This document shows positions 2,400 through 21,223 of a stretch of DNA of 64,000 nucleotides, in pieces. A program made the translations under genes and the position numbers. Below the pieces are notes generated by a model, which saw only the letters and a program-made list of their open reading frames with translations, made no database searches and had not been told where the DNA came from. This DNA is from Paramecium tetraurelia (Eukaryota), in NCBI GenBank assembly GCA_000165425.1, contig CT868058.1:1-64000 (forward strand). The letters run 5' to 3'. The first letter of the stretch is position 1; every line of letters begins with the position of its first letter.

Positions 2400-3800
2400 A
2401 CCTAATTTCTTGAAAAACTGTTGTAATGGAAGCTGTACTTTACATAATGGAACGCGTTGAATTTACTTAGTAGTTTCTCATATTTTATACTAAGTTTAAT
2501 AAGTAAGCACTGGCTCATGCATTGCTAGATTCATAATTAGAATCACAATCGGTATAAAATTGGATACTTCATTACAGGATGGATCTCAAATGCATTGCTC
2601 CAGGAAAGCCACCAAAAAATTATTTACAATTAAGAGTATTTCCAGTGCACTTCTTGATGATAACAGGAAGACTGATATCATAAAATCTTTAGTTGCTTTT
2701 ATTTACTGTTGCAATAGTAATCTTTAGATACGTTGGGTTATTTCTTAATATTATTTAATTTAGTTTCTTTTCCCGCCTATCAGTGATTTGGTCAGGAGTG
2801 CATCAAGCCCTTTTAAAATCAGTGATATCCTCTCTTCTACCTGGAAGTTGATTAAACAATCAAAATGTAAGAAGCAGGGCTGTTCAAAACATTGTCAGAA
2901 ATAATGTATTCTGGCGAATACTGAATGAACTTCAAATACTCTGATTATATCAAAAACTTTTGGAAAACAAGAATTGGATCTAAAAGAGTAGACTGGCGAC
3001 CTACTTGTAACGCCAAAACAAATACTTGCATCACATCAGAACTAGATATTGAAATGATAATTATTTTATATCTAGTTCCTTAAAAGGTATCTTCATCATC
3101 AATTTTTAATCAAGCTCTTGATTTACGAACATTATTTGTACACTCATATATCTAATTTTTTAGATTAAGTAAGGCTAGAAGCAACTTTATAGATTCTGAG
3201 AAATGTGCATAAGTTGTTCTATTCAAATAAACTGGTGTAAATTTAACTACCAGTTTACAAACTGCATCCACAAGTGTTAGGTTAATCAACGATGGACATT
3301 ATATCTTGAAATTATAAGTAGAACAAGTAGCGCTTTAAGAGAAATATAAGAGAATTATTAAAAAAATAAGCATTCAAGCTGAGCTCCAATTGTAGATTGC
3401 TACAAGATGAATCGCAAATAAATGAAGGCTGCACTCCATTATAGACATCAAAATATAGTAGCTAGAGCATTTCTGTTAAACTTTTAAAGGTAGCAGGAAT
3501 TTTGATTTAACAAAATCTTCAGTTTTTTAACATATAGTTGGAAGAGCGTTGTAATTTTTTACATAATTTGTATTCATCTTAAGACGCTGCTAAACAGCGA
3601 CAGAGAGCTTCTAATAATTCTAATATACATATTCTATACTATATGAGCATTTTTCATTTTTCTATTCTTCATCTCTCCTAATCTTAATAATTTGTTCATA
3701 GCATTCTCCAAGTGCTCACTTATTTAAAATGATCAAATTTTAATTAAACTTCCAACCTTTGCAAAAGTCTGCTCATCACCCTTACAAAAATATGCAAGAT
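2400..3800 (-). pseudogene. Decayed coding remnant of unknown family
   Basis: Long codon-like stretches on the minus strand in the ciliate code (e.g. FYDISLPVIIKKCTGNTLNCKQFFGGFPG; FDVYNGVQPSFICDSSCSNL) are broken by TGA and frameshifts. Confidence 0.25.
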
Positions 3801-3866
3801 ACTTTTGATTTATATTACTCTTCTTAAACTAAAGTAATAGAAATTCAAAATTTTTTTATAAAAGTC

Positions 3867-6353
3867 ATGAATTGCACTTACCATATCCAAAATCAAGTAT
3901 AATTGATTTGCATAGCTCCTCACAAGTGTAAATGCTTACGGAAACTGTGTATTGAATGCCAATTTGAACATGGAGTGGATATCCAAAAATATGCAGTTCC
4001 GATTAATAGGTTTCAAGAGATAGTTATCAAAAAATTATAAGAATATAGGCTTTAAGAGAAATCTGAAATAGCATAATAAAGAAAAGAATTTAAATGTATT
4101 CTATCTCAAACAGAAATTATGTTGAAAAGAATTTGGGATGAGTTATCATAATAAATTAATTAGCTTTATGATTTCATTGAATAAACAAATAACTCATACC
4201 TGAATCTTGTCAACGAAAATGATAATATAATTGAATCTTCATATTCAGACATTGAAAAATTAGTATAAATTATATAAGGGAACACATTAAATGATTGGAT
4301 TTTTTAGAAAGATTAATATTTAGTTTAATTGGAGAAGGCAAAGAATTGGTGGGATCAAGAAGTTAAAGCTTTTAGTGAGAAGATGAATAAAGAGATGAAT
4401 TAAAATATGCCATTTATTACGTACTAATTTATTAATAATAAAGGATTCAAATCGTTGAAAAGGAAGACTAAGTTAATGTTTGGAAGGATGATTTATATGA
4501 ATTGTTGGCATAGACAAAAAATATTGATTAACAATTAATAAACATGGTTATTGAATTGCTAAGGAAGGAGTAAATCACAGATTGTATAGGGTATCTTTCA
4601 AACTCTGAAATAGTAAAAAAATTAGAACATCCTAGAATTAATAATATTTTGCTCTTAATTAATACTCTCAAAAATATTAGCGAAATTGATTTTAATAGAA
4701 AGAATTACTCCACAGAAGATTATAGTTAAATTAGAAAGGATTTGATCGAAAAAATAGCAAATGATGGAAGAATAATCTAATTTCTAAAATTTCTAGTTGA
4801 TCTTACAGCTATTGATGAAAGATTGATCTAATGTGGATCCAATTCACTTAATTTATTAGCAGAGATGAAGGCGGATGTGAGAGAACAAAGCTTTCAGAAT
4901 ATAAGGATTAGAGATACTTCTTTAAGTGGTGCTAATATGGTAAGATGCAATTTAAATGGATCAATTTTTGATAATGTTGATATTAGTGGAATGAGCTTGA
5001 ATGGTGCATCATTATTCAATTGTAAATGGAAGAATATACAAATACATGATTTAAATAAATTCGATGCTCATAATGGTAGTGTTTATACAATCTGTTTCTC
5101 TCCTAATGGTGCTACATTTGCATCTGGTAGTGGTGATAACTCTATTAGATTATGGGATGTTAAGACAGGATAATAAAAAGCAAAATTAGATGGTCATACT
5201 CATTATATTTATTCAATCTTTTTTTCTCCTGATGGTAGCACAATAGTATCTGGCAGTGAAGATAAGTCTATCCGTTTATGGGATGTTTAGACAGGATAAT
5301 AAATAAGAAAATTAGATGGTCATACTAGTGCAGTTTATTCAGTCAGCTTCTCTCCTGATGGTGCTACATTAGCATCTGGTGGTGGTGGTCAATTTGGTGG
5401 TGGAGATTCTTCCATCCGTTTATGGGATGCTAAGACAGGATAATTAAAAGCCAAATTAGATGGTCATACTAGCACAGTTTATTCAGTCTGTTTCTCTCCT
5501 GATGGTACTTCATTAGCATCTAGTAGTTATGATAAATCTATTCGATTATGGAATATTAAGACAGGATAATAAAAAGCCATATTAGATGGTCATAAAGATT
5601 ATGTTAAAACAGTATGTTTTCATCCAGATGGTACTATATTAGCATCTGGTAGTCATGATAAATCAATCCGTTTATGGGATGTTAAGACAGGTTAATAAAA
5701 AGCCAAATTAGATGGTCATAGTTAACTAGTAATATCCGTATGTTTCTCTCCTGATGGTACTACATTAGCATCTGGTAGTTATGATAGGTCTATTCGTTTA
5801 TGGGATATTAAGACAGGATAATAATAAGCCAAATTAGATGGTCATACTAGTTATGTTTAATCAGTCTCTTTCTCTCCTGATGGTACTACTTTAGCATCTG
5901 GTAGTCATGATAATTCGATTCGTTTATGGGAAATAAAGATAGGATAATAATAAACCAAATTAGATAGTAATACTAATTATGTTCAATCAGTTTGTTTCTC
6001 CCCTGATTCTACTATATTAGCATCTGGTACTTCTAATAACACTGTCAGTATATGGAATGTTAAAACAGGTTAACAAATCGTACCTTCGGACAATAATTAC
6101 AAAAGTATTCTTGCATAATTTTAATCCCCAATATTTAAAAACAATATTCTTCCAGAAAGAAGTATTTATTTTTCACAATTCTTTAGTTACCTCAAATATT
6201 ACAATCCTTAGAATTTCTTAAAATCCTAATCTAGAAATTTAAGGAGCCTTAATCTTGAAAGGAGAATTTATAAATTCTTAAGGTGTAGATTTGCGATAAT
6301 TATTAAAATCTAAAGGATGTTATATTTTAGAAAACTAATTTGGATTTCAATGA
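3867..6353 (+). CDS. Cys/His N-terminal domain + coiled coil + pentapeptide repeats + 8 WD40 repeats (Paramecium expanded WD40 family)
   Basis: ATG 3867 ([35 protein letters not shown]). Introns 4421-4443 and 6162-6186. Pentapeptide segment [38 protein letters not shown]. Eight [29 protein letters not shown] repeats. TGA 6351-6353. Confidence 0.92.
5062..6075 (+). repeat. Tandem ~126-bp (42-codon) WD40 repeat array, 8 units
   Basis: Recurring DNA motifs ttagatggtcat, ttctctcctgatggt, ttagcatctggtagt, cgtttatgggat and aagacaggataa at ~126-bp spacing. Confidence 0.93.
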
Positions 6354-9245: not shown

Positions 9246-12152
9246 TCACTATTAAAAGTAAAAATTTGAATTAGATTCAATTTTAAATACTGTTCCAAGC
9301 AGTACATTCAATTCATCTTATTTAACAGGCTTTTAAAGAAATGTGTTAATTCCAATGTTTTTTCCTTATTATATATTTTCTTAAGTATCATACGCAGAAC
9401 AAATCACAATAAAAGCCTAATTAGAGGTCAATTCAAGGATCTATTTAGTATCTTAAAAATTTACTTGTTAACTTGCTTAAAACCCATCCATTCCTGGCAT
9501 TTCGATATCCATAAAAATTAATTTATAGTTTTGACAATGTTTTAGCATTTTTTGTTTGACTTTTTCAATGGCTTGAAATCCATCAAATGCTTAATCAACT
9601 TCTATTTTATATTTACTCAGTATCATTTTTAGTGCTATCTAATTGAATGGAATATCATCTACAATAAGTATATGGACACAATTTTGACAGAGTATATCTG
9701 CATTTTGAAAGTAATCTTCTGGTAATTACTTCTAAATTTTGTTGTGATAATCCAGAATCTTCTTTGAAAAGTATTCTGGACTGATAGGAAGAAAAATTTC
9801 AGGTTATTTTTCTGAATCATTCAATCTCAATGTAATAAATGACTCTGACTTTCCTTCTTGAAGATTTACGTCATTATCTAATTTTAAGGTCTTATTACTC
9901 AAACTGAATACCTTATCTTAATCTAAATTTTAAACATTATTTTCTTATCGGTTTACCAAATTATTCAATTTCTCGCCTTATTAATTTGAAAGATAAATAG
10001 ATTATAAATTGGTTTATTATAAGTCTTCTATTTGAAACTATACCATAGTTCCTTTATTTTTCTTAGAGCTAAGAGTTAATTTATTTTCTTTTGATTCTGT
10101 CAAACCTTCTATCAATTTTGCTGCAATGATTAAACCTAATCCTGGCTATTTGATTTTTGAATGAGATTTCAACACAGCTCCAAATTCAATAGTATTATGC
10201 AAGCAATTCTAAATTTTGTTTAGTTTATGTTCATCTATCCCAATTCCATTATCTTTAACTGAAAAATTAATGTATTATTAATCAACTTCAATCACACTTA
10301 AAAAAATGCTTCCTCCTTGAGGAGTAAATTTGATTGCATTATTTAATAGATTTACTAATAACTATATTATTCTCTGTTTATCATTACGAAAGATCCTTCC
10401 TGCTAAGTAATCAGAGACTTTGATGGTTAAAGCAATATTTTTTTATGACACCTGTAGTTTATATAAGTCCTCTATTTCCTAAGTAATTTGATTAATCTTA
10501 AAATTAGCAATATTATAATTAAAGGAAAATGATTATAGTGCAGCATAATCTAAAATGTCATTAATTTAATGAATTAACAAAGTTATTGAACATTATGCAA
10601 TATCAATATAATTAGAAAAAGCTTTAGAAATTTGTTAGCATCTCATAAGATTCAACATTTGATAGCAACTATTCAATGGAGTTCTTAATTCGTGGGAAAA
10701 TGATTTAATTAAACTATGATGAATTATTTATTCATCTCTCATTTATTGACATTTGTATTTATTTGTGACATTCTTAATTATGATCAGCATAACAGGACGC
10801 TCTTAATCACTTTAATTATTTGATATATGACTTTTAATTGAGGATTTAAATTATGAAGAAGCTGAAATGTATTCTTATTATTAATTGGTCATTGATGTTG
10901 GCATAATTATTAATTTCAATTTCTTTTAGTAATTTTATTATGTTTGTTCTGATTTGATAAGCCATTCATAAATAAATATTTGTTGATGAAATGCTTACTA
11001 AAAATCTTTGTAAAATTAACTTTCATTTTGTCCTAGAATTCCAAAATATTTTTATGGTTACAGAATGATGTCCAAAACATCAACTGAATTATTGCTTATT
11101 TATAACTTTTTTATTATTTATTAGAGTAATTGGTAATGATGTTATTTCTTTTGTTATTTATTTGATGTTTCGCTTACATTTTCTTGGATTTTTGCAGTAT
11201 TGACACACATTTTCACTTTTTCCAGAACTTGCTCAATCCCTTAACATTCTAATATTTTTTCACATTTATTGTTAATAAAATTAATTGATTAATGCTCATT
11301 AATAATCAATATACCATAAGGAAATATATTTATCAAATTAGAGTATAATTAAAGCATCTAATACTGAGAGTTCCCTTAACTTAGAATATTTTTCTGAGAT
11401 TTTGAAAAGCTTGTCAAATGTGAATATCGTTTTAGTTTTAATTCATCTGGAAGATCCTTCAATTAAATAGTAAAATATTTTTTAGGAGATTAAACAAGAG
11501 TAATTTTACTCTATGATCTTATTAAGGAATGCATGAGATAATTTTTAGCGGGTGCAGGTGTTTCTTCATTTTATTAATTTTATATTATTTATCCCTATTT
11601 AAATGTTTTAAGATAAAAATTTTATGGAAATCTTTCATATTTTCCAAATTTCTTATAGTTTTTAATTCCTTAATGAACTAAAACAACTCCAATGAGAGTC
11701 AAGCACTCAAGTGTTTAGTAATTTTAACTGCAAACGACCATCCATATTGTTCTAATAAATAAATACGTAGGGAGTCCTAATCTACAAATTAAACTAGATT
11801 TCTGCCTAGCCTTCTTTAAGTAAGTGTTGTAATTGATAATCATTAACAAACAATTGGTAACTATGTAAAATGTTTAAGTGTAATTCAAAATCAATAATGA
11901 TTCTACGTAAATTACAAAATATAAAAGAGAAACTACATGCAAAAATATATTATAGTCTAACCCTCTTCGAATTATGTAATATTAACATATTCTTGCCAAT
12001 ATGCAAACTATCTATAATATAAATAACTCATAATTTATAGTTGACATCAGATTTGTCGCCAAAAATATCCACCAAAAGCATTAAGTTAGATTAGCAACAA
12101 AGATTAAAATGATTGAAATCTACTTTAAGAAATTCTAATCTTACACTTTCAT
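9246..12152 (-). CDS. Membrane-anchored hybrid sensor histidine kinase (TM region, PAS-like, HisKA, HATPase, C-terminal receiver)
   Basis: ATG 12152 (MKVQDQNFLKQISIILIFV). H-box FSHELRTPLNSC, N-box LVNLLNNAIKFT, G1 VKDNGIGI, G2 GLGLIIA. Receiver ILIVDDIPFN..LIFMDIEMPGMDG..FLQKP. Intron 9441-9464. TGA at 9246. Confidence 0.92.
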
Positions 12153-14547
12153 GTTCTTTTATTTAAATATTGTCTAAATAAAAATTAAAGATAAAAGAGA
12201 AGGTTCATGTAAAGATTGACGATATCTATAGAATCTTTATTATAAACAATAAGACATAGTAAGATTAAATAGAGTAAAATGAATATAATATTTCAGAAAA
12301 TTATTATCCTAATGTTGTATATCCATCTTCGATTTAAGATAATGTTATTTCTAAACTTTTTCAAATACGCACAGAATCTGGACTATTATAGTGATTAGGG
12401 TGCTTTAACAAGTCCATAAATTAAAATTGTGCCTAAAAAGATAGACATTTTAGTCTTAAAGAATTAGCCATTGGTATCGATTATTTAAGTGAATTTTATA
12501 TTTATTCATTAATAAAATAAAATACCACTATACAATATATTAATAATAAATATAAATTCCAAACGTGATACAATTCTTATTCAGTGTTGAAACTAGGTTT
12601 AAATCTAATAGTAATCTATATATAAGTGTATTGATCAATAATATATGATATTTAATTTTGAGGCATATGCGTAGATGTTAGCTATTTCAAAGTACCACTA
12701 TTATATTTGATGGACTCTTAATTTTTTTTGAACTATGGAATTAAAATTATTATTCACAAGGGAGAGCAATAAAACCTTTAATAAATAGATTCTTTTTAAA
12801 TATACTATCAATATCACTCTTAATATAATTTATAAAAAATACCCCTCCTAAAAATAAAAGGAAAGAATTATTCAGGTTAGATGTATCCTCCTTGTATTAG
12901 ATTAAATTAATTAGGAATACATTTTAGGAAGATGAATTTGATATTTGTCAATATATTAAATAAATTAATTGAGAAAACTTGTAAATTTTTATATTTATTA
13001 TTATTAATTTATTTTTTTATTTTGGATGTTTTCCATTTACATCTTAATTCAACCAAGCTGAATTGTATTACGATGAATATTAATTATTACCTTTACTAAC
13101 CGCTCTTAACAGTTAAGGAAAAACACCATTAGTCTTAAGGAATATATATTAAAAGGAGAATAAATATATTTAACTATATACTAATTAAATTTGAGTTTAT
13201 TATTATTATAAAGAAATAAAAAACTTAATTTCAATTAATAGTTCTTGGATAGAGATGTGGTCTAAATGCATCTCCCCTCTAGTTTAGAAAAATGAGTTTC
13301 AAAAAATTTGTTTGTTAAATTAACAAATGTTGTGAAAAAAAATTATTTACCACAAGAAAAAAACAGAATCAATAATTTATTTTGTTCTGCTCAAATAGGT
13401 TACAAATAAAAAATTGAGATAAGATTATAAAGAAGATAGAGCAATAATCAAACATATATGATATATCCCTAGTAAGTAAATACTTTAGTACAAATTTAAA
13501 GCAATTATGAATTTAAAAATAAAGTAATTCTCTTTGAACTCAACTGTCATTTTTATCAACTTTATTTAAACAAATTTATTGGAAGTAACCCTTAATCATA
13601 ATCATTTATGTTTAAATTTGTTATCAGTCATTTGTAAAAAAAAAAAGTTTAAGTGAATTCCACATAAACTATATATTAGGAAAATTGATTCAGAAAGATT
13701 AGAAACTCTCAAAATTAATTTATTTTAATTTGATTAATGAATGCAATTAATTATATCCGATTGATAGCTTTTTCTTTAGAATTTTAAGGAGATAAAGAGG
13801 ATAGTTATTGAAAAGCATGATTTCAAATTAACAGGATGTCTTTTTGCAACTACATCAAATTTGTGGCCTTTATTTGTTTAAGAAAATTAGATAAAATAAG
13901 AATAATTTGGATATTCTATTAGAAAAATAAAACTTATTGGTATAAAATCTCAATTAGATTCTAGATTTAAATTAGAAGACAACTTAGTTAAGCAAAAAAT
14001 CCCTTTAACTCTATCCGAGAAGTTCAACTTTCTTTAATTACTCAATTGAAATTGACAAATTAATTTTAATCCTACTTAATGATTATTTCTCTGTCTATCC
14101 TAGATTTCATTATAGAACCTTTGAAATCTTTTAAAATTATGTAAAATAAAATAATAGTTAATAGACCTATCGATAAATTCCAATCCACTAAAAAAATTAA
14201 ACCTATTACTAATGATATCCTCGGCATAAATAACTTCGTTTTCAATTTAAATACCTATAAAAAAAATATAAAGATCTGGATGAATCCCTAGTGAGTAAAA
14301 ATTATTAATAATAATAGTTTCTTTAAATTTAGAATATACTTTTACTATCCTACAATAAAAAATTGTTTGTGAGTCAAAAGAAGGAAAATAGATTATTTTA
14401 TCATATCTATTCTATTAACTCACGGCTATTAAATTTTCTTGATAATCAAATAAATGAATTTGATAATTCTAGAATTCTATAATTTTTATAATTTAATTTC
14501 AAAAGTATTATTTATTCATATTATTATTTTTAATAGAAATACAACAT

Positions 14548-17225: not shown

Positions 17226-20200
17226 ATGATAAAATTATTCTCATTTATAGGATTCCTTTTCACAGTGCTAACTAAATTAATAGTGTATGAATAAAAATTT
17301 AATCATGCTTTGAATGGTATATACATTATTAATAAAAGATTGGGTTAATAATAATAATAATGAGAATCTTAACTATTAAATTGATGCTTCAAATAATATT
17401 TAAGAAACTCCTAAATTAAATGAAAACACAATAATATAAAGATTTTTTAAGTTTCCACCACACAATTAGCTTTTTATAGACATAAATATTATTCTAAATA
17501 GAGCTTTAGATTTAGTTGTGTAGATAGGCAATAAGAAATATTTATCATTTGCTTAATACGACGCATCTAATCCGACGGCAACTTGTAAGTTTACCTTTGT
17601 TCATTTATATGAAATTGATGTAATCACAATATCAGCACAAAAAAATCCATCGCAATTAATTTCTTTCGACTGGGCATTAAAATAAATATCAATATATATC
17701 GAAGAATGTCCAGCAACTTGCAGTTACTGTCCAGATCTTTATGGAGTTGATGCTTGTTCTCAATTTTCAGCACTTTTTCCATTTTAAGGATTGTATTCTA
17801 AAGAAGCTGATAATTGGATAATCACACCAAATATTTAAAATTCTTCTACTAACTAACCCATCTCTTCACGTATCAAAATTTATTATAATAGAAAATGTGA
17901 TTTTTTACCAACTTGTCTCTAATACTTATTCTTTAAAGCTTGAAAGAACTGTTGCCATTCCAAGTAATTATGGAACTATTATAAAATTCAAGCTTATCTT
18001 TAAACAATAATGGCTTAATTATGTTCAAATAAAAATAAATAATTATTTCATTTTAATACATTATTCTTAAGCAACAGCAATGATGATAAATACAAATGGT
18101 AATAATTATCCAGGTTGGACATATACTAATAATTATTTTTTCTATTAAGTATCAGTGAGTAATTCTGACTACAATATTCAAATTAAAAATATTCTAGTAT
18201 ACATCTAGTATTAAAATGATAACAATGACTATTTTAGCATTTAAGAATTTAATATTTATTATAAAAAATTAGAAGCTTATTGGATAGATCAACTTCAAGG
18301 TTGTTTTACAATTTTATTTAATAAATGTGTATAATGCCAAGAAGGCTGGTATTTCAGAAATGATGAATAAATATGTGTTCCTTAATGCGGTGATTTAATA
18401 ATATAAGGTTAGGAAGATTGCGATGACGGAAATACTGAAGCATATGATGGTTGTTTTAATTGTAAATTCTCATGTGCTAAAAATTGTAAATATTGTGTTT
18501 TTGGAGAGTGCTTACTTATGGAAAAATAAAAATAGGGAATAGTTACAATAGAAAAGGATTGCTAGAGAATTGGTTACATTTCAAGAATAGGATATTATTA
18601 TGATATATAAATGGATGATTGTCAACCTATATGTGGAGATGGAATAGTAAGCATGCATGAGGATTGCGATGATTAAAATGATACTCCTTATGATGGCTGT
18701 TTTAATTGTCGGTTTTCTTGTCCTACCAATTGTCTTTTTTGTTAATATGGTAGATGCCTATATTGTACAGTTGGATATGATTTGCAAAGAGGTAGATGCT
18801 AACCTGTTTGTGGAGATTCTAATGTGTTAGAATAAGAAACTTGCGACGATGGTAACGATCTTCAATTCGATGGGTGCCATAACTGTGAGAGTAGTTGTTA
18901 ATTAGAATGTACAATGTGTTAAAATACATAATGTTATTAATGTCTAGATGGTTGGACTCTAGAGGAGGGGAAGTGTTAATAAGTGTGTGGAGATTCAAAA
19001 GTGGCAGTGGCATCATACGAATTATGTGATGATCCAGCTGATGTTAATTGTATTTAGTGCCTTTACTAATGCTCAGAAAATTGTTAGAAATGCGATGTAC
19101 CACTTTCATGCAACCTTTGTGAGGACACTTATACATTGATAAAAGGCTAATGCAAATCAGTTTGTGGAGATAAGATGATAAACCCTCTTTATGAGGAATG
19201 CGATGATGGTAATGATATTCCATTTGATGGCTGTCATTATTGTTCGTTATCATGTTCTTTCGGTTGCATAACATGTGAAGAGAACAATGTTTGTAAACAA
19301 TGCGATCCAACAAGTTACTTTTTAAATTCCACGACTGCCTTATGTCAAGAGATTCCCTAACAAATTATTGAAGGAGAAGAGGAAGAGGAAGGTTAAGACG
19401 AAGTACAGACAGAAGAGATATTATGTAATGACAATTTTATACTAATTAATGGAAAATGTGAAAGTTTGTGTGGTAATGGAATGCTTGCTAGCTTATACGA
19501 GGAATGCGATGACAATAACAAGAATAGTGGAGATGGTTGCTCATCTTATTGTAAATTGGAGGATTCTTTTATTTGTTTAAATACAGAAGATTCATTCAGT
19601 ATATGCTCATTCATCATCCTTCCAGATTTCAACCTTCGATCTTTGAGTGATGCTAAAGATTAAACACAAATCATTGAGTTAACCTTCACTGAAAAAGTCA
19701 AAATGTTCTAAGATACTGTTCTTGAAGACATAAGCAAATTTACTATTACACCTTAAACTGAATATGAAATGAAAATTGTCCCTATAACTAATTTAACCAC
19801 AATGATAAGCAATCCTAAATATTAATTTAAAATTCTGTTTTAACAACCTATCTAGAACCCTATGCTTCAGATTAGTTTTGCTAAACAATAAATTTTTAAT
19901 GCTAATGAAATGGAATTAAAAAAATTGGAAAAATTAATTAGTTTAGGGAGTCCTTTTGTGATGTCCAAAGAAAGCAAAGAATATGTCACTTCTATTGTTA
20001 AAATGAATGATGCTATGATGTATACTACGATAGCTATATCTGGCTTTGCTCTATTAACAGGAACTCCAGCCATGTTATTCAATCTAATAGATTTACTATA
20101 ACAGCTTTCTTATATTCGATTTATGCAATATAAATTTCCATCTCATCTGCGCTAGTTTCTTGAGAGTTATACCAAGATTTCCTTAAAACCTGTATTAGAT

Positions 20201-21223
20201 TACCTTAATTTAGATTAAATATTGACAAATCTAAATGGTGGCTAATTACCCTTCCAACCTAGAAAAAACTAACCCTCCAGTTAAGCAGACCCTTTAAATC
20301 AGTTTTATATTATGAATGCTAAAAGTTGTTACTTTTCACTGGTTGCTTCTTTTTTGTCTTATGTAGTATGCCTCATATTCTCTAAAACAAGTGCCTTAAA
20401 CTATTTCAATAAAATTATCATTCAAAAAGGGATGAAATTAAGGAATTTAACTAAGGTCTTTTAACTGTACCATAACTTATAAGTAGCATGCATAAAATAC
20501 AGAAATTAATACTTTTACTCTGGATTGTTTCAAGTCTACTACACAATTATGCATCAATTTTTATTTAGTGCATTCCTCCAATTTCCTAATTATACATTTA
20601 CATCATTATTTGAGGCTGTTAATTCATTAAATGCAATATTAGCGTTAGGTTTCATTTTATTTGTAGAATTCTAATAATTTATAATTACTACAGGATCTAT
20701 AAAGAATATAAATGATTGGAAATTCTTTTTTGATGGGATAAACAAAAAATTTTGGTCTTAAATTTTAAAGCCTATTTAAATGTTAAAGATAACAACTTAT
20801 ATTTTTTCAATTGTATTTTTAATGGATTATCCTGAAGCATAATCATTTGTTTTATCAGCCCAATCTAGTTTTTATGTGGTGTATTTGATATTATTCAAGC
20901 CAATGGATATTGGTTTTGAGTATATAAAATTAGTCTCACGAGAAGTCCTTTTCATTTCTACAATTTGTTCTTTCTATGTTTATAGCTATGATTTAGATGA
21001 CGAAAAAATGTTATTACTTGGTTGGGCACATATAGCACTGTTCACTTCTATATTAGGCTCTAATTTACTCCTTGATATTGGTAAATACGTTAAACTAGGA
21101 TATGACAACATCCAGATAAAAAAGCTAAAAATCGAGAGACGATTGAATTACCAATATCAGAATAATTATCTGCACTAATTCATAATGGTAGAATATGGAT
21201 AACGAGCTAGATTAAGATAATGA
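17226..21223 (+). CDS. Cysteine-rich surface/membrane protein with DUF4215/Myxococcus-type CGD..ECDDGN..DGC repeats and C-terminal multi-pass TM region
   Basis: Signal-peptide-like start MIKLFSFIGFLFTVLT. Two early introns (~17318, ~17870). Six CGD/CGN..CDD repeats at ~18385-19560. Hydrophobic C-terminal segments. TGA 21221-21223. Confidence 0.87.

What the first reader, a model, noticed from the sequence alone, without database searches (positions are those of the whole stretch)
5062..6075. HET-E-like WD40 array: conserved DNA scaffold with variable surface positions, in an NLR-like frame lacking the NTPase
Seen: eight 42-aa units share a near-identical scaffold, but the residues after GH (NGS.Y, THY.Y, TSA.Y, TST.Y, KDY.K, SQL.I, TSY.Q, TNY.Q) and around S-x-D-x (G/N, E/K, Y/K, H/K, Y/R, H/N) differ in almost every unit. 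The array is preceded by 'NSLNLL..' plus pentapeptide repeats and followed by a '[19 protein letters not shown]' cap. Known: Podospora HET-D/E NACHT-WD40 receptors show high internal repeat identity with diversified top-face positions, and pentapeptide-WD40 modules occur in fungal and bacterial STAND proteins. Inference: this could be a rapidly diversifying non-self sensor in a ciliate, here with a Cys/His + coiled-coil N-terminus instead of a NACHT domain.
Basis: partly seen in the sequence, partly recalled or inferred. Interest (0 to 1): 0.72.

Follow-up and report, generated by a model that had tools for sequence, protein, structure and literature searches.

The report
Paramecium WD40 sensor gene without NTPase
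An expressed Paramecium gene joins a zinc-finger and coiled-coil head to an eight-bladed WD40 propeller that it shares with NLR-type relatives, but its binding surface is conserved in the sister species, so this copy is not evolving fast.

Summary
The array is real. It has eight WD40 units (window 5057-6082) in a spliced, transcribed three-exon Paramecium tetraurelia gene (3867-6353).

The protein reads, in order:
- a Cys/His zinc module
- a coiled-coil hairpin
- a family-specific helical domain
- pentapeptide repeats
- 8 WD40 units
- a conserved C-terminal cap

There is no NTPase. "Near-identical" overstates the repeats: they are 69-85% alike in DNA and 43-79% in protein. Their codons still agree more than codon usage predicts.

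The variable residues sit at positions 6, 7, 8, 10, 26 and 28. These include the canonical WD40 top-face contact positions, and they are the most variable positions family-wide.

The same helical-pentapeptide-WD40-cap cassette is joined to NACHT NTPase or kinase heads in Paramecium paralogues, including one in P. tetraurelia. So "NLR-like frame without the NTPase" holds.

"Rapidly diversifying" does not hold for this gene. The P. octaurelia orthologue keeps all eight blades one-to-one, and only 3 of 48 variable sites differ, against 25 of 288 other sites. A few paralogues do carry truly near-identical arrays.

Verdict: a NACHT-less, TRIM-like-headed member of an apparently undescribed Paramecium NLR-related family. 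Function is untested.

The parts
3867..4420 (+). Exon 1, starting at the ATG at 3867. It encodes the Cys/His zinc module (aa 1-45, about 3867-4001) and the long helical (coiled-coil) hairpin (aa 46-184).
   Evidence: Matches the N-terminus of annotated protein P0001. An RNA contig starts at 3861. C3, H6, C15, H19, C21, C28 and C31 are invariant in 13 family N-termini. AF2 model: pLDDT 88, helices 46-59, 65-117, 126-137 and 139-183.
4421..4443 (+). Intron 1, 23 nt (GTA..AAG).
   Evidence: RNA contig record 26 of run X20 covers 4257-5177 with exactly 23 letters missing. The junction ...MPFIT|IQIVE is the one in P0001. The frame change was worked out.
4444..6161 (+). Exon 2: helical middle domain, pentapeptide repeats, eight WD40 units and the linker.
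   Evidence: Open frame under code 6. 99% identical to P0001 over 100% of its length.
4466..4864 (+). Family-specific all-helical middle domain (8 helices) that ends in the ..[22 protein letters not shown].. motif.
   Evidence: AF2 model: pLDDT 90, helices at 8-140 of the exon-2 numbering. No Pfam family and no clear fold match. A profile of this domain finds only 147 representatives with E<=0.001 among 1.84 billion proteins.
4904..5047 (+). Pentapeptide-repeat beta-helix.
   Evidence: PF00805, E=2.9e-7, 30.3 bits (cut-off 20.2), at 4910-5014. Strands at 154-201 in the model. Structural matches to pentapeptide proteins, e.g. MfpA 2bm4_A with Z 8.6, rmsd 2.3 over 73 residues.
5057..6082 (+). 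Eight WD40 units of 126 bp. Unit 3 is 144 bp and unit 8 is degenerate. Variable positions 6, 7, 8, 10, 26 and 28 of each unit form the putative ligand surface.
   Evidence: positions mapped with PMC3419727.
5387..5405 (+). In-frame 18-nt stretch (GQFGGG) inside unit 3. The public P. tetraurelia model removes it as an intron.
   Evidence: P0001 lacks these 6 aa, while the P. octaurelia orthologue P0002 keeps them. Coordinates. No RNA contig was seen joining across it among the rows shown, so its status is open.
6162..6186 (+). Intron 2, 25 nt (GTA..TAG).
   Evidence: RNA contig record 32 of run X20 covers 5913-6296 with exactly 25 letters missing. The junction ..ILPER|ITSNIT.. is the one in P0001. 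Found by the intron pattern scan.
6187..6353 (+). Exon 3: conserved C-terminal cap (..[31 protein letters not shown]..) and the TGA stop at 6351-6353.
   Evidence: The cap is found in 72 of 274 fetched proteins, and in 55 of the 69 that have the middle domain. It occurs on NACHT-, kinase- and zinc-finger-headed forms alike. No Pfam family.

Best explanation
This is an intact, transcribed P. tetraurelia gene for a protein of about 812 residues. It belongs to a multigene family found so far only in Paramecium. The family is defined by one sensor cassette: a helical domain, a pentapeptide beta-helix, a variable number of WD40 blades, and a C-terminal cap.

Paralogues carry this cassette behind a NACHT NTPase (a true NLR layout) or behind a protein kinase. 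Here it sits behind a small Cys/His zinc module and an antiparallel coiled-coil hairpin. That head resembles the B-box plus coiled-coil core of TRIM proteins.

Shown:
- the gene model and its transcription
- the domain order
- the absence of an NTPase
- the shared cassette
- the blade-to-blade differences at the canonical top-face contact positions
- the conservation of those residues in the sister species

Inferred: the eight-bladed propeller binds one specific, evolutionarily stable ligand through its top face. The pentapeptide helix is a rigid spacer. The zinc/coiled-coil head self-associates, standing in for NACHT-driven oligomerisation. So this protein would act as an NTPase-independent sensor or adaptor of the NLR-related family. 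The blades diversified in the past; this copy is not doing so now.
For: Gene and expression:
- RNA contigs lack exactly the 23-nt and 25-nt introns. RNA depth is 0 outside about 3861-6326.
- 99% identical to the annotated protein.

Domains:
- WD40 x8 and pentapeptide repeats.
- Head model pLDDT 88 and middle-domain model pLDDT 90.
- Seven invariant Cys/His.
- 18 of the 49 listed weak Foldseek rows for the head are B-box or TRIM B-box/coiled-coil structures: TRIM54 3q1d (E=0.2, TM 0.60 on the target), MuRF1, KAP1, TRIM5alpha.

Family:
- All 45 hits to residues 1-395 are Paramecium.
- The middle-domain profile finds 147 representatives.
- NACHT heads: P0163, and P0184 below cut-off. Kinase head: P0157.
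- P0275 of P. tetraurelia has a Walker A motif, the middle domain (E=1e-36), 16 WD units and the cap.
- The cap occurs on all head types.

Surface:
- Positions 8, 26, 10, 6, 7 and 28 are the most variable of 42 in 552 repeats.
- Positions 8, 10 and 26 are R1-2, R1 and D-1.
- Between this gene's repeats, dN at these sites is 0.99, against dS 0.33 overall and dN 0.17 elsewhere.

Stability:
- 8 of 8 blades match their positional counterpart in P. octaurelia at 88-98% identity. None of the 8 has its best match inside its own protein.
- Variable sites: 3/48 changed, against 25/288 for the rest.
- WD40 divergence is 8.0%, against 12.9-14.2% for the coiled coil, the middle domain and the cap.
Against: - No ligand, localisation or phenotype is known.
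- The B-box reading rests on weak structural rows only. No Foldseek match reaches E<=0.001. Pfam gives no B-box hit even at E<=10. A profile of 13 N-termini finds 0 PDB chains at E<=10. The ESM Atlas gives zf-B_box clusters only at 0.78 and 0.76, which is lead level.
- Self-association of the head was not tested.
- There is no RING or other catalytic domain, so the output step is unknown.
- dN>dS at the variable sites between repeats may be inflated, because codon bias caps synonymous difference and the repeats are old.
- Conservation was tested against one sister species only, at protein level.
Confidence: 0.5

Rival explanations
1. Ordinary cellular scaffold. The protein is a lineage-specific WD40 adaptor with a fixed endogenous partner (for example cortical, ciliary or trafficking machinery). 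Its kinship with NACHT proteins reflects domain shuffling only, and it has no role in non-self sensing.
For: - The contact residues and blade order are conserved between sister species.
- It is transcribed in an RNA-seq run; the conditions of that run are unknown.
- Blade-specific top-face residues are what any WD40 protein shows (PMC3419727).
- Moderate internal identity is common in protist WD40 proteins (PMC5587647, passages).
Against: - The cassette, with its family-specific helical domain and cap, is shared with NACHT-headed proteins.
- Some paralogues have near-identical arrays that differ mostly at the contact sites: P0010 scaffold 97% against variable sites 47%; P0054 94% against 21%.
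- In two other orthologue-like pairs the contact sites change 1.7 to 3 times as often as the rest.
- The family is large and is found only in Paramecium.
Confidence: 0.3
2. One reading: a HET-E-like, rapidly diversifying non-self sensor whose repeats are kept alike by concerted evolution while the surface codons are driven apart.
For: - The variable sites include the top-face contact positions.
- Codon identity between repeats exceeds the codon-usage expectation: 81% against 49-62%.
- dN at the variable sites is 0.99, against dS 0.33 between repeats.
- Thousands of contig pieces at least 85% alike pile on the array in every run. This hints at a large pool of similar repeat DNA in the genome.
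- Paralogues with truly near-identical arrays exist.
Against: - Internal identity is below the >80% of HNWD genes.
- 0 of 8 repeats have their best match within the gene, and 8 of 8 match the positional blade of P. octaurelia.
- Variable sites are not faster than the rest (3/48 against 25/288, p=0.78), and the array is among the slowest-evolving parts of the protein.
- The idiosyncratic features (the GQFGGG insert and the degenerate blade 8) are shared by the orthologue.
Confidence: 0.12
3. A decaying or non-functional family member, that is, a NACHT-type gene that lost its NTPase.
For: The last blade is degenerate. Many family gene models are truncated.
Against: - The frame is open across three exons, both introns are removed in RNA, and the orthologue is intact at 88-90% identity.
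- By the Cys/His pattern, the zinc-finger head is found on 31 of 121 rows with a near-full middle domain. The window gene lies in a clade of such forms, apart from the NACHT clade (quick tree).
- No remnant of the NACHT or post-NACHT region aligns to it.
Confidence: 0.03

Closest known systems
Podospora anserina HNWD genes (HET-E, HET-D, HET-R): HET-NACHT-WD40 NLRs with highly internally conserved repeats
   Same: 42-aa / 126-bp WD40 units. Differences between units are concentrated at a few top-face positions. Repeat DNA is more alike than codon usage predicts (PMC12222747, passages).
   Different: There is no NACHT and no HET domain. Internal identity is 43-79% (protein), not >80-100%. There is no sign of concerted evolution or repeat turnover since the split from P. 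octaurelia. A pentapeptide spacer, a helical domain and a C-cap are present.
Paramecium NACHT-WD40 proteins (e.g. P0275 of P. tetraurelia, P0163 of P. pentaurelia; public records named only 'NACHT/NB-ARC domain-containing protein')
   Same: Homologous helical middle domain (E about 1e-36), WD40 array and C-terminal cap. Same genus and same species.
   Different: They carry about 500-1100 extra N-terminal residues that include a NACHT NTPase (PF05729), and 11-16 or more blades. In the quick tree they form a separate clade from the zinc-finger-headed forms. No part of their N-terminal 1128 residues aligns to the window protein.
Bacterial and fungal NACHT-pentapeptide-WD40 NLR-like proteins (e.g. 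the Mycoavidus cysteinexigens 'NACHT and WD40 repeat domain-containing protein', P0312)
   Same: A pentapeptide spacer followed by consensus-like WD40 repeats. P0312 is the best non-Paramecium hit to the Paramecium NACHT region (E=1.2e-9). Its internal repeat identity is comparable, at 0.63.
   Different: No NTPase here. The helical middle domain and the C-cap were not found outside Paramecium: all 45 named hits are Paramecium. One search carries no names.
TRIM-type B-box plus coiled-coil proteins with a C-terminal ligand-binding domain (TRIM5alpha; TRIM-NHL/Brat, which end in a beta-propeller). The architecture is recalled from general knowledge.
   Same: An N-terminal small zinc module followed by a long antiparallel helical hairpin and a C-terminal propeller. 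Weak fold matches to the TRIM54, MuRF1 and MID1 B-boxes and to the KAP1 and TRIM5alpha B-box/coiled-coil structures.
   Different: No RING. No sequence-level B-box signal. The Cys/His spacing differs from the B-box2 pattern as I recall it. The propeller is WD40, not NHL. Dimerisation is untested.

Membership tests
WD40 repeat (Pfam PF00400) | Repeated units of about 40 aa with GH...WD that match the profile above the curated cut-off | tested here: met
   8 stretches, E=9.8e-97, 313.8 bits against a cut-off of 27.
Pentapeptide repeat (Pfam PF00805) | Profile match above the gathering score, and a right-handed beta-helix | tested here: met
   30.3 bits against a cut-off of 20.2. Structural matches to MfpA, Rfr, NP275 and the SV2 luminal domain.
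HNWD / HET-E-type highly internally conserved WD40 NLR | Central NACHT NTPase | tested here: not met
   No Walker A motif. No NACHT in Pfam at E<=10 on the non-WD parts. The models are all-helical or a zinc module.
HNWD / HET-E-type highly internally conserved WD40 NLR | Repeats >80-100% identical within the gene (PMC12222747) | tested here: not met
   Protein 43-79% (mean 63%); DNA 69-85% (mean 77%).
HNWD / HET-E-type highly internally conserved WD40 NLR | Differences concentrated at a few hypervariable top-face sites | tested here: met
   Positions 6, 7, 8, 10, 26 and 28: pN 0.55 against 0.15 elsewhere. The same positions are the most variable in 552 family repeats. Positions 8, 10 and 26 are R1-2, R1 and D-1.
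HNWD / HET-E-type highly internally conserved WD40 NLR | Concerted evolution, with repeat number or order changing between close relatives | tested here: not met
   8 of 8 blades correspond one-to-one with P. octaurelia, and 0 of 8 have their best match inside their own gene. Within-species polymorphism was not testable: the contigs that span unique parts of the gene are identical to the window, and no contig spans the array.
HNWD / HET-E-type highly internally conserved WD40 NLR | Positive selection at the hypervariable codons | tested here: inconclusive
   Between repeats, dN(hv)/dS is about 3, but codon bias and age confound it. Between orthologues there is no excess of change at these sites (3/48 against 25/288). 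No orthologue DNA was available for codon models.
NLR / STAND | Three-part layout with a central NTPase | tested here: not met
   Head and sensor are present, but the NTPase is absent in this gene. It is present in paralogues that share the cassette.
B-box zinc finger (Pfam PF00643) / TRIM-like B-box plus coiled coil | Sequence match to a B-box profile | tested here: not met
   No Pfam hit at E<=10. A profile of 13 N-termini finds 0 PDB chains at E<=10.
B-box zinc finger (Pfam PF00643) / TRIM-like B-box plus coiled coil | B-box fold followed by an antiparallel coiled coil | tested here: inconclusive
   18 of 49 listed Foldseek rows are B-box or TRIM structures, but the best is E=0.2. The VIA search was filled by generic helical hairpins, Z<=7.2. 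Seven invariant Cys/His.
B-box zinc finger (Pfam PF00643) / TRIM-like B-box plus coiled coil | RING domain upstream (full tripartite motif; recalled) | tested here: not met
   The protein starts at the Cys/His module, with Met1 invariant in 28 aligned sequences. The RNA contig starts 6 nt before the ATG.
Highly-Repetitive WD40 proteins of Hu et al. 2017 (PMC5587647) | Internal sequence identity at least 0.7 (Moderately-Repetitive: at least 0.4) | tested here: not met
   Mean 0.63 by my own pairwise measure, which falls in their 'moderately repetitive' band. Their exact measure differs from mine.

The most novel reading that the evidence does not exclude
Paramecium has an NLR-related recognition repertoire in which one sensor cassette (helical domain, pentapeptide helix, WD40 blades, cap) is shuffled among three kinds of head: NACHT, protein kinase, and a TRIM-like zinc-finger/coiled-coil. 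The zinc-finger-headed forms, including this gene, would be NTPase-independent pattern receptors that assemble on their ligand through the coiled coil, as TRIM5alpha does. That would be a ciliate convergence of the NLR and TRIM logics of innate immunity. Young near-identical arrays such as P0010 and P0054 would supply new specificities, and old arrays like this one would keep useful ones.
Probability: 0.2. Interest if true: 0.75.

Novelty: new variant of a known kind. Interest (0 to 1): 0.5.

Why it matters
Almost nothing is known about how ciliates recognise endosymbionts, parasites and viruses. Six full-text searches found no paper that describes this family.

This gene shows that the WD40 sensor cassette of Paramecium's NACHT proteins is also used without any NTPase, behind a TRIM-like head or a kinase. 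If these proteins are receptors, that gives a natural experiment on whether the NTPase switch is needed for such sensors. It also gives a tractable system (RNAi by feeding, known Holospora and Caedibacter infections) for testing protist immunity.

If they are not receptors, the family is still a clear case of lineage-specific head swapping on a conserved repeat module. It is also a warning that blade-to-blade variation at top-face sites does not by itself mean fast evolution.

Tried and rejected
- Whole genome: none is held, so genome-wide paralogue DNA and per-codon dN/dS could not be done.
- Paralogues in the window: tblastn found only the gene itself.
- Orthologue DNA: the run search returned only runs labelled organism A or B with near-identical sequence. 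No sister-species DNA was obtained.
- Laid contigs: the WD40 part is buried under thousands of paralogous pieces. No contig spans the array, so neither repeat-number polymorphism nor the fate of the 18-nt stretch 5387-5405 in RNA could be judged.
- VIA-align wide search of the head gave only generic helical hairpins (Z<=7.2).
- For the helical middle domain, Foldseek and VIA gave nothing above Z 5.5 outside the pentapeptide part.
- A profile of the zinc module against PDB sequences gave 0 hits.
- The ESM Atlas gave ciliate clusters without Pfam at 0.91 and 0.89, and B-box clusters only at lead level.
- The careful tree search did not finish in 300 s. Only the quick tree is used.
- Earlier-findings look-ups by place and by sequence gave nothing relevant.
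- Two papers that hold both 'Paramecium' and 'NACHT' were opened and proved irrelevant.
- Considered and rejected: that the middle domain is a remnant of the NACHT module. In P0163 it lies after the NACHT and post-NACHT regions, and nothing from residues 1-1128 of P0163 aligns to zinc-finger-headed members.
Full report
WHAT IS THERE

The window is AT-rich (29% GC) and reads openly only with TAA/TAG as glutamine. The region 4445-6160, translated with code 6, is 99% identical over its full length to a public Paramecium tetraurelia macronuclear protein (P0001, 806 aa). It is 90% identical to a P. octaurelia protein (P0002, 812 aa).

From the frames and the public protein, the gene has three exons:
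- exon 1: 3867-4420
- a 23-nt intron: 4421-4443
- exon 2: 4444-6161
- a 25-nt intron: 6162-6186
- exon 3: 6187-6353, ending in TGA

Contigs of an RNA-seq run (X20) cover 4257-5177 with exactly 23 letters missing and 5913-6296 with exactly 25 missing. One contig starts at 3861. RNA depth is zero at 3600-3801 and beyond 6327, while the three other runs, of DNA or unknown kind, continue. The gene is therefore transcribed, and both introns are removed.

The public model also removes 18 in-frame bases (about 5387-5405, GQFGGG) that the P. octaurelia protein keeps. I could not settle this from the contigs.

THE OBSERVATION

Tandem Repeats Finder reports a 126-bp period with 7.4 copies and 72% matches (82% for 5417-6029). 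Pfam WD40 matches eight stretches (E=9.8e-97). The eight units run from 5057 to 6082. Unit 3 carries the 6-aa insert, and unit 8 is degenerate.

Pairwise identity is 69-85% in DNA (mean 77%) and 43-79% in protein (mean 63%). "Near-identical" is therefore too strong.

The DNA likeness is nevertheless more than codon bias. Of 708 repeat pairs with the same residue in a column, 574 (81%) use the same codon. The expectation is 49% from codon usage in the non-repeat part of the same gene, and 62% from codon usage inside the repeats.

Five of them are the five columns with the highest non-synonymous difference.

The flanks are as described:
- NSLNLL and a pentapeptide-repeat stretch lie before the array (PF00805, 30.3 bits against a cut-off of 20.2).
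- The GALILKGEF...DLRQLLKSKG cap lies after it, in another frame because of intron 2.

THE REST OF THE PROTEIN

Residues 1-45 hold seven invariant Cys/His (C3, H6, C15, H19, C21, C28, C31) in 13 aligned family N-termini.

An AlphaFold2 model of residues 1-184 (28-sequence alignment, pLDDT 88) shows a small strand/helix module followed by a long helical hairpin (65-117, 126-183).
- Foldseek against the PDB gives no match at E<=0.001. Even so, 18 of the 49 rows listed are B-box domains or TRIM B-box/coiled-coil structures (TRIM54 E=0.2, MuRF1, MID1/2, KAP1, TRIM5alpha, TRIM72).
- Sequence methods do not see a B-box. Pfam gives nothing at E<=10, and a profile of the N-termini finds no PDB chain at E<=10.
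- The ESM Atlas puts zf-B_box clusters only at 0.78 and 0.76, behind two ciliate clusters.

I therefore call the head "B-box-like" and treat membership as unproven.

A second model (exon-2 residues 1-204, 43 sequences, pLDDT 90) shows eight helices and then a beta-helix. Only the beta-helix finds relatives, and all of them are pentapeptide proteins (MfpA Z 8.6). The helical domain has no Pfam family and no clear fold match.

There is no Walker A motif in this protein or in any of the 69 fetched family members that carry the middle domain.

THE FAMILY, AND THE NLR QUESTION

- A search with residues 1-395 returned 45 proteins, all named as Paramecium of the aurelia complex. Some carry a kinase domain in place of the zinc-finger head.
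- A profile of the helical middle domain, run against 1.84 billion representative proteins, found only 147 at E<=0.001.
- Two of these have a Walker A motif upstream. Pfam calls NACHT in both: P0163 at E=1.3e-8 and 35.3 bits, above the cut-off; P0184 at 21.8 bits, below the cut-off and N-terminally truncated. P0157 has a protein kinase.
- These are public records of P. pentaurelia and P. sonneborni.
- Searching with the NACHT region of P0163 gave 42 hits. Of these, 39 are Paramecium proteins: 7 from P. tetraurelia and 5 from P. bursaria. The next best is a Mycoavidus NACHT-WD40 protein.
- P0275 of P. tetraurelia (2077 aa) has a Walker A motif at 481, the middle domain at 1037-1176 (E=1e-36), 16 WD units and the C-cap.
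- The C-cap occurs in 72 of the 274 proteins fetched up to that point. It is present on zinc-finger, kinase, NACHT and unknown heads alike.
- A quick maximum-likelihood tree of the middle-plus-pentapeptide region (121 rows; the careful search did not finish) puts the NACHT forms in one well-supported clade. The window gene sits with P0002 and P0026 inside a zinc-finger clade.
- Seven further members of the NACHT clade begin, at their residue 1, inside the post-NACHT region of P0163. They are likely truncated models.

The sensor cassette is shared with true NACHT proteins of the same species, and this gene has a different head. No NACHT remnant aligns to it.

IS IT HET-E-LIKE AND FAST-EVOLVING?

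Passages of PMC12222747 describe the HNWD genes as having:
- repeats over 80% to 100% identical within each gene
- concerted evolution
- hypervariable sites under diversifying selection
- length polymorphism

Only the hypervariable-site pattern is met here. Among 552 repeats from the 69 family proteins, the entropy is highest at positions 8, 26, 10, 6, 7 and 28 (2.7-3.8 bits, against 2.3 bits or less at every other position). By the rules in PMC3419727 (passages), positions 8, 10 and 26 are R1-2, R1 and D-1. These are the residues generally used for binding on the WD40 top face.

Between the eight repeats of this gene:
- dN at the six sites is 0.99
- dS overall is 0.33
- dN elsewhere is 0.17

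This fits past diversification of the surface on a shared scaffold. It is confounded by codon bias and by the age of the repeats.

Against ongoing diversification:
- Each of the 8 blades has its best match (88-98%) in the same-numbered blade of the P. octaurelia orthologue. None has its best match inside its own protein.
- The two proteins differ at 28 of 336 array positions: 3 of 48 variable sites and 25 of 288 others (Fisher p=0.78).
- The array (8.0% different) and the pentapeptide part (6.3%) are the most conserved parts. The coiled coil, the middle domain and the cap differ by 12.9-14.2%.
- By internal identity the gene ranks 38th of the 65 family proteins with at least four usable repeats. 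By the cut-offs of PMC5587647 (passages) it is "moderately", not "highly", repetitive.

The family as a whole is more dynamic:
- P0010 has 97% scaffold identity but 47% at the variable sites. For P0054 the figures are 94% and 21%.
- Blade counts range from 2 to 14, though some models are truncated.
- In two of three collinear orthologue-like pairs the variable sites changed more often than the rest (10/47 against 20/275, and 7/36 against 23/201). Pooled over the three pairs, the counts are 20/131 against 66/762 (p=0.024).
- Only 4 of 65 proteins have at least half of their repeats best-matched within the same protein.

MECHANISM (INFERENCE)

- The propeller most likely binds one specific partner through its top face.
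- The pentapeptide helix is a rigid connector.
- The zinc/coiled-coil head probably self-associates, standing in for NACHT-driven oligomerisation in the paralogues.
- There is no catalytic or RING domain, so the output is unknown.

Whether the partner is foreign or cellular cannot be told from sequence.

NOVELTY

The proteins are in public databases under automatic names. Six full-text searches found no paper on a Paramecium or ciliate family of this kind. Two papers holding both 'Paramecium' and 'NACHT' were opened and proved irrelevant. Supplements were not searched.

The principles are known: WD40 sensors with variable top-face sites, NLR head swapping, and repetitive WD40 proteins in protists. 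What looks new is the cassette with its own helical domain and cap, and its use behind a B-box-like/coiled-coil head without an NTPase. I rate it a new variant of a known kind, with interest 0.5.

SURROUNDINGS

No paralogue lies in the 64-kb window. The neighbours look unrelated:
- a hybrid histidine kinase at 9246-12638 on the minus strand
- a DUF4215 cysteine-rich repeat protein at 17360-21223

Noticed in passing
window 5387-5405: The public P. tetraurelia protein (806 aa) lacks 6 residues (GQFGGG) that the window encodes in frame and that the P. octaurelia orthologue keeps. The implied 18-nt intron is shorter than the two confirmed introns of this gene (23 and 25 nt). It may be an annotation artefact.
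   Followed up: partly
window 9246-12638 (-): A long open frame with HisKA, HATPase_c and response-regulator receiver domains, i.e. a hybrid histidine kinase gene.
   Followed up: no
window 17360-21223 (+): A 1287-aa frame with six DUF4215 cysteine-rich repeats followed by a hydrophobic C-terminal half.
   Followed up: no
related proteins P0141, P0175, P0142, P0179, P0070, P0191, P0010: These public Paramecium models begin, at residue 1, inside the region that follows the NACHT domain in P0163. They are probably N-terminally truncated NACHT-type genes. P0010, the array with the highest internal identity (0.90), is one of them.
   Followed up: partly
related protein P0149 (P. tetraurelia, 1708 aa): It carries the same middle domain, about 20 WD-like motifs and the cap, behind a 530-residue N-terminal region with no Pfam family. 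This would be a fourth, unknown head type.
   Followed up: partly
window 5115-5922, runs X1, X15, X19, X20: Thousands of contig pieces 85-99% alike pile on the WD40 array in every run (13,671 pieces in X1), and no contig spans it. Repeat DNA of this kind is abundant in the genome and breaks short-read assemblies.
   Followed up: no
model of window 3867-4418: The top Foldseek row for the head (E=0.1, 165 columns) is a chain of the Toxoplasma gondii pre-conoidal ring 2 (9ya0_AD, 865 aa). This might hint at a wider alveolate zinc-finger/coiled-coil head.
   Followed up: no
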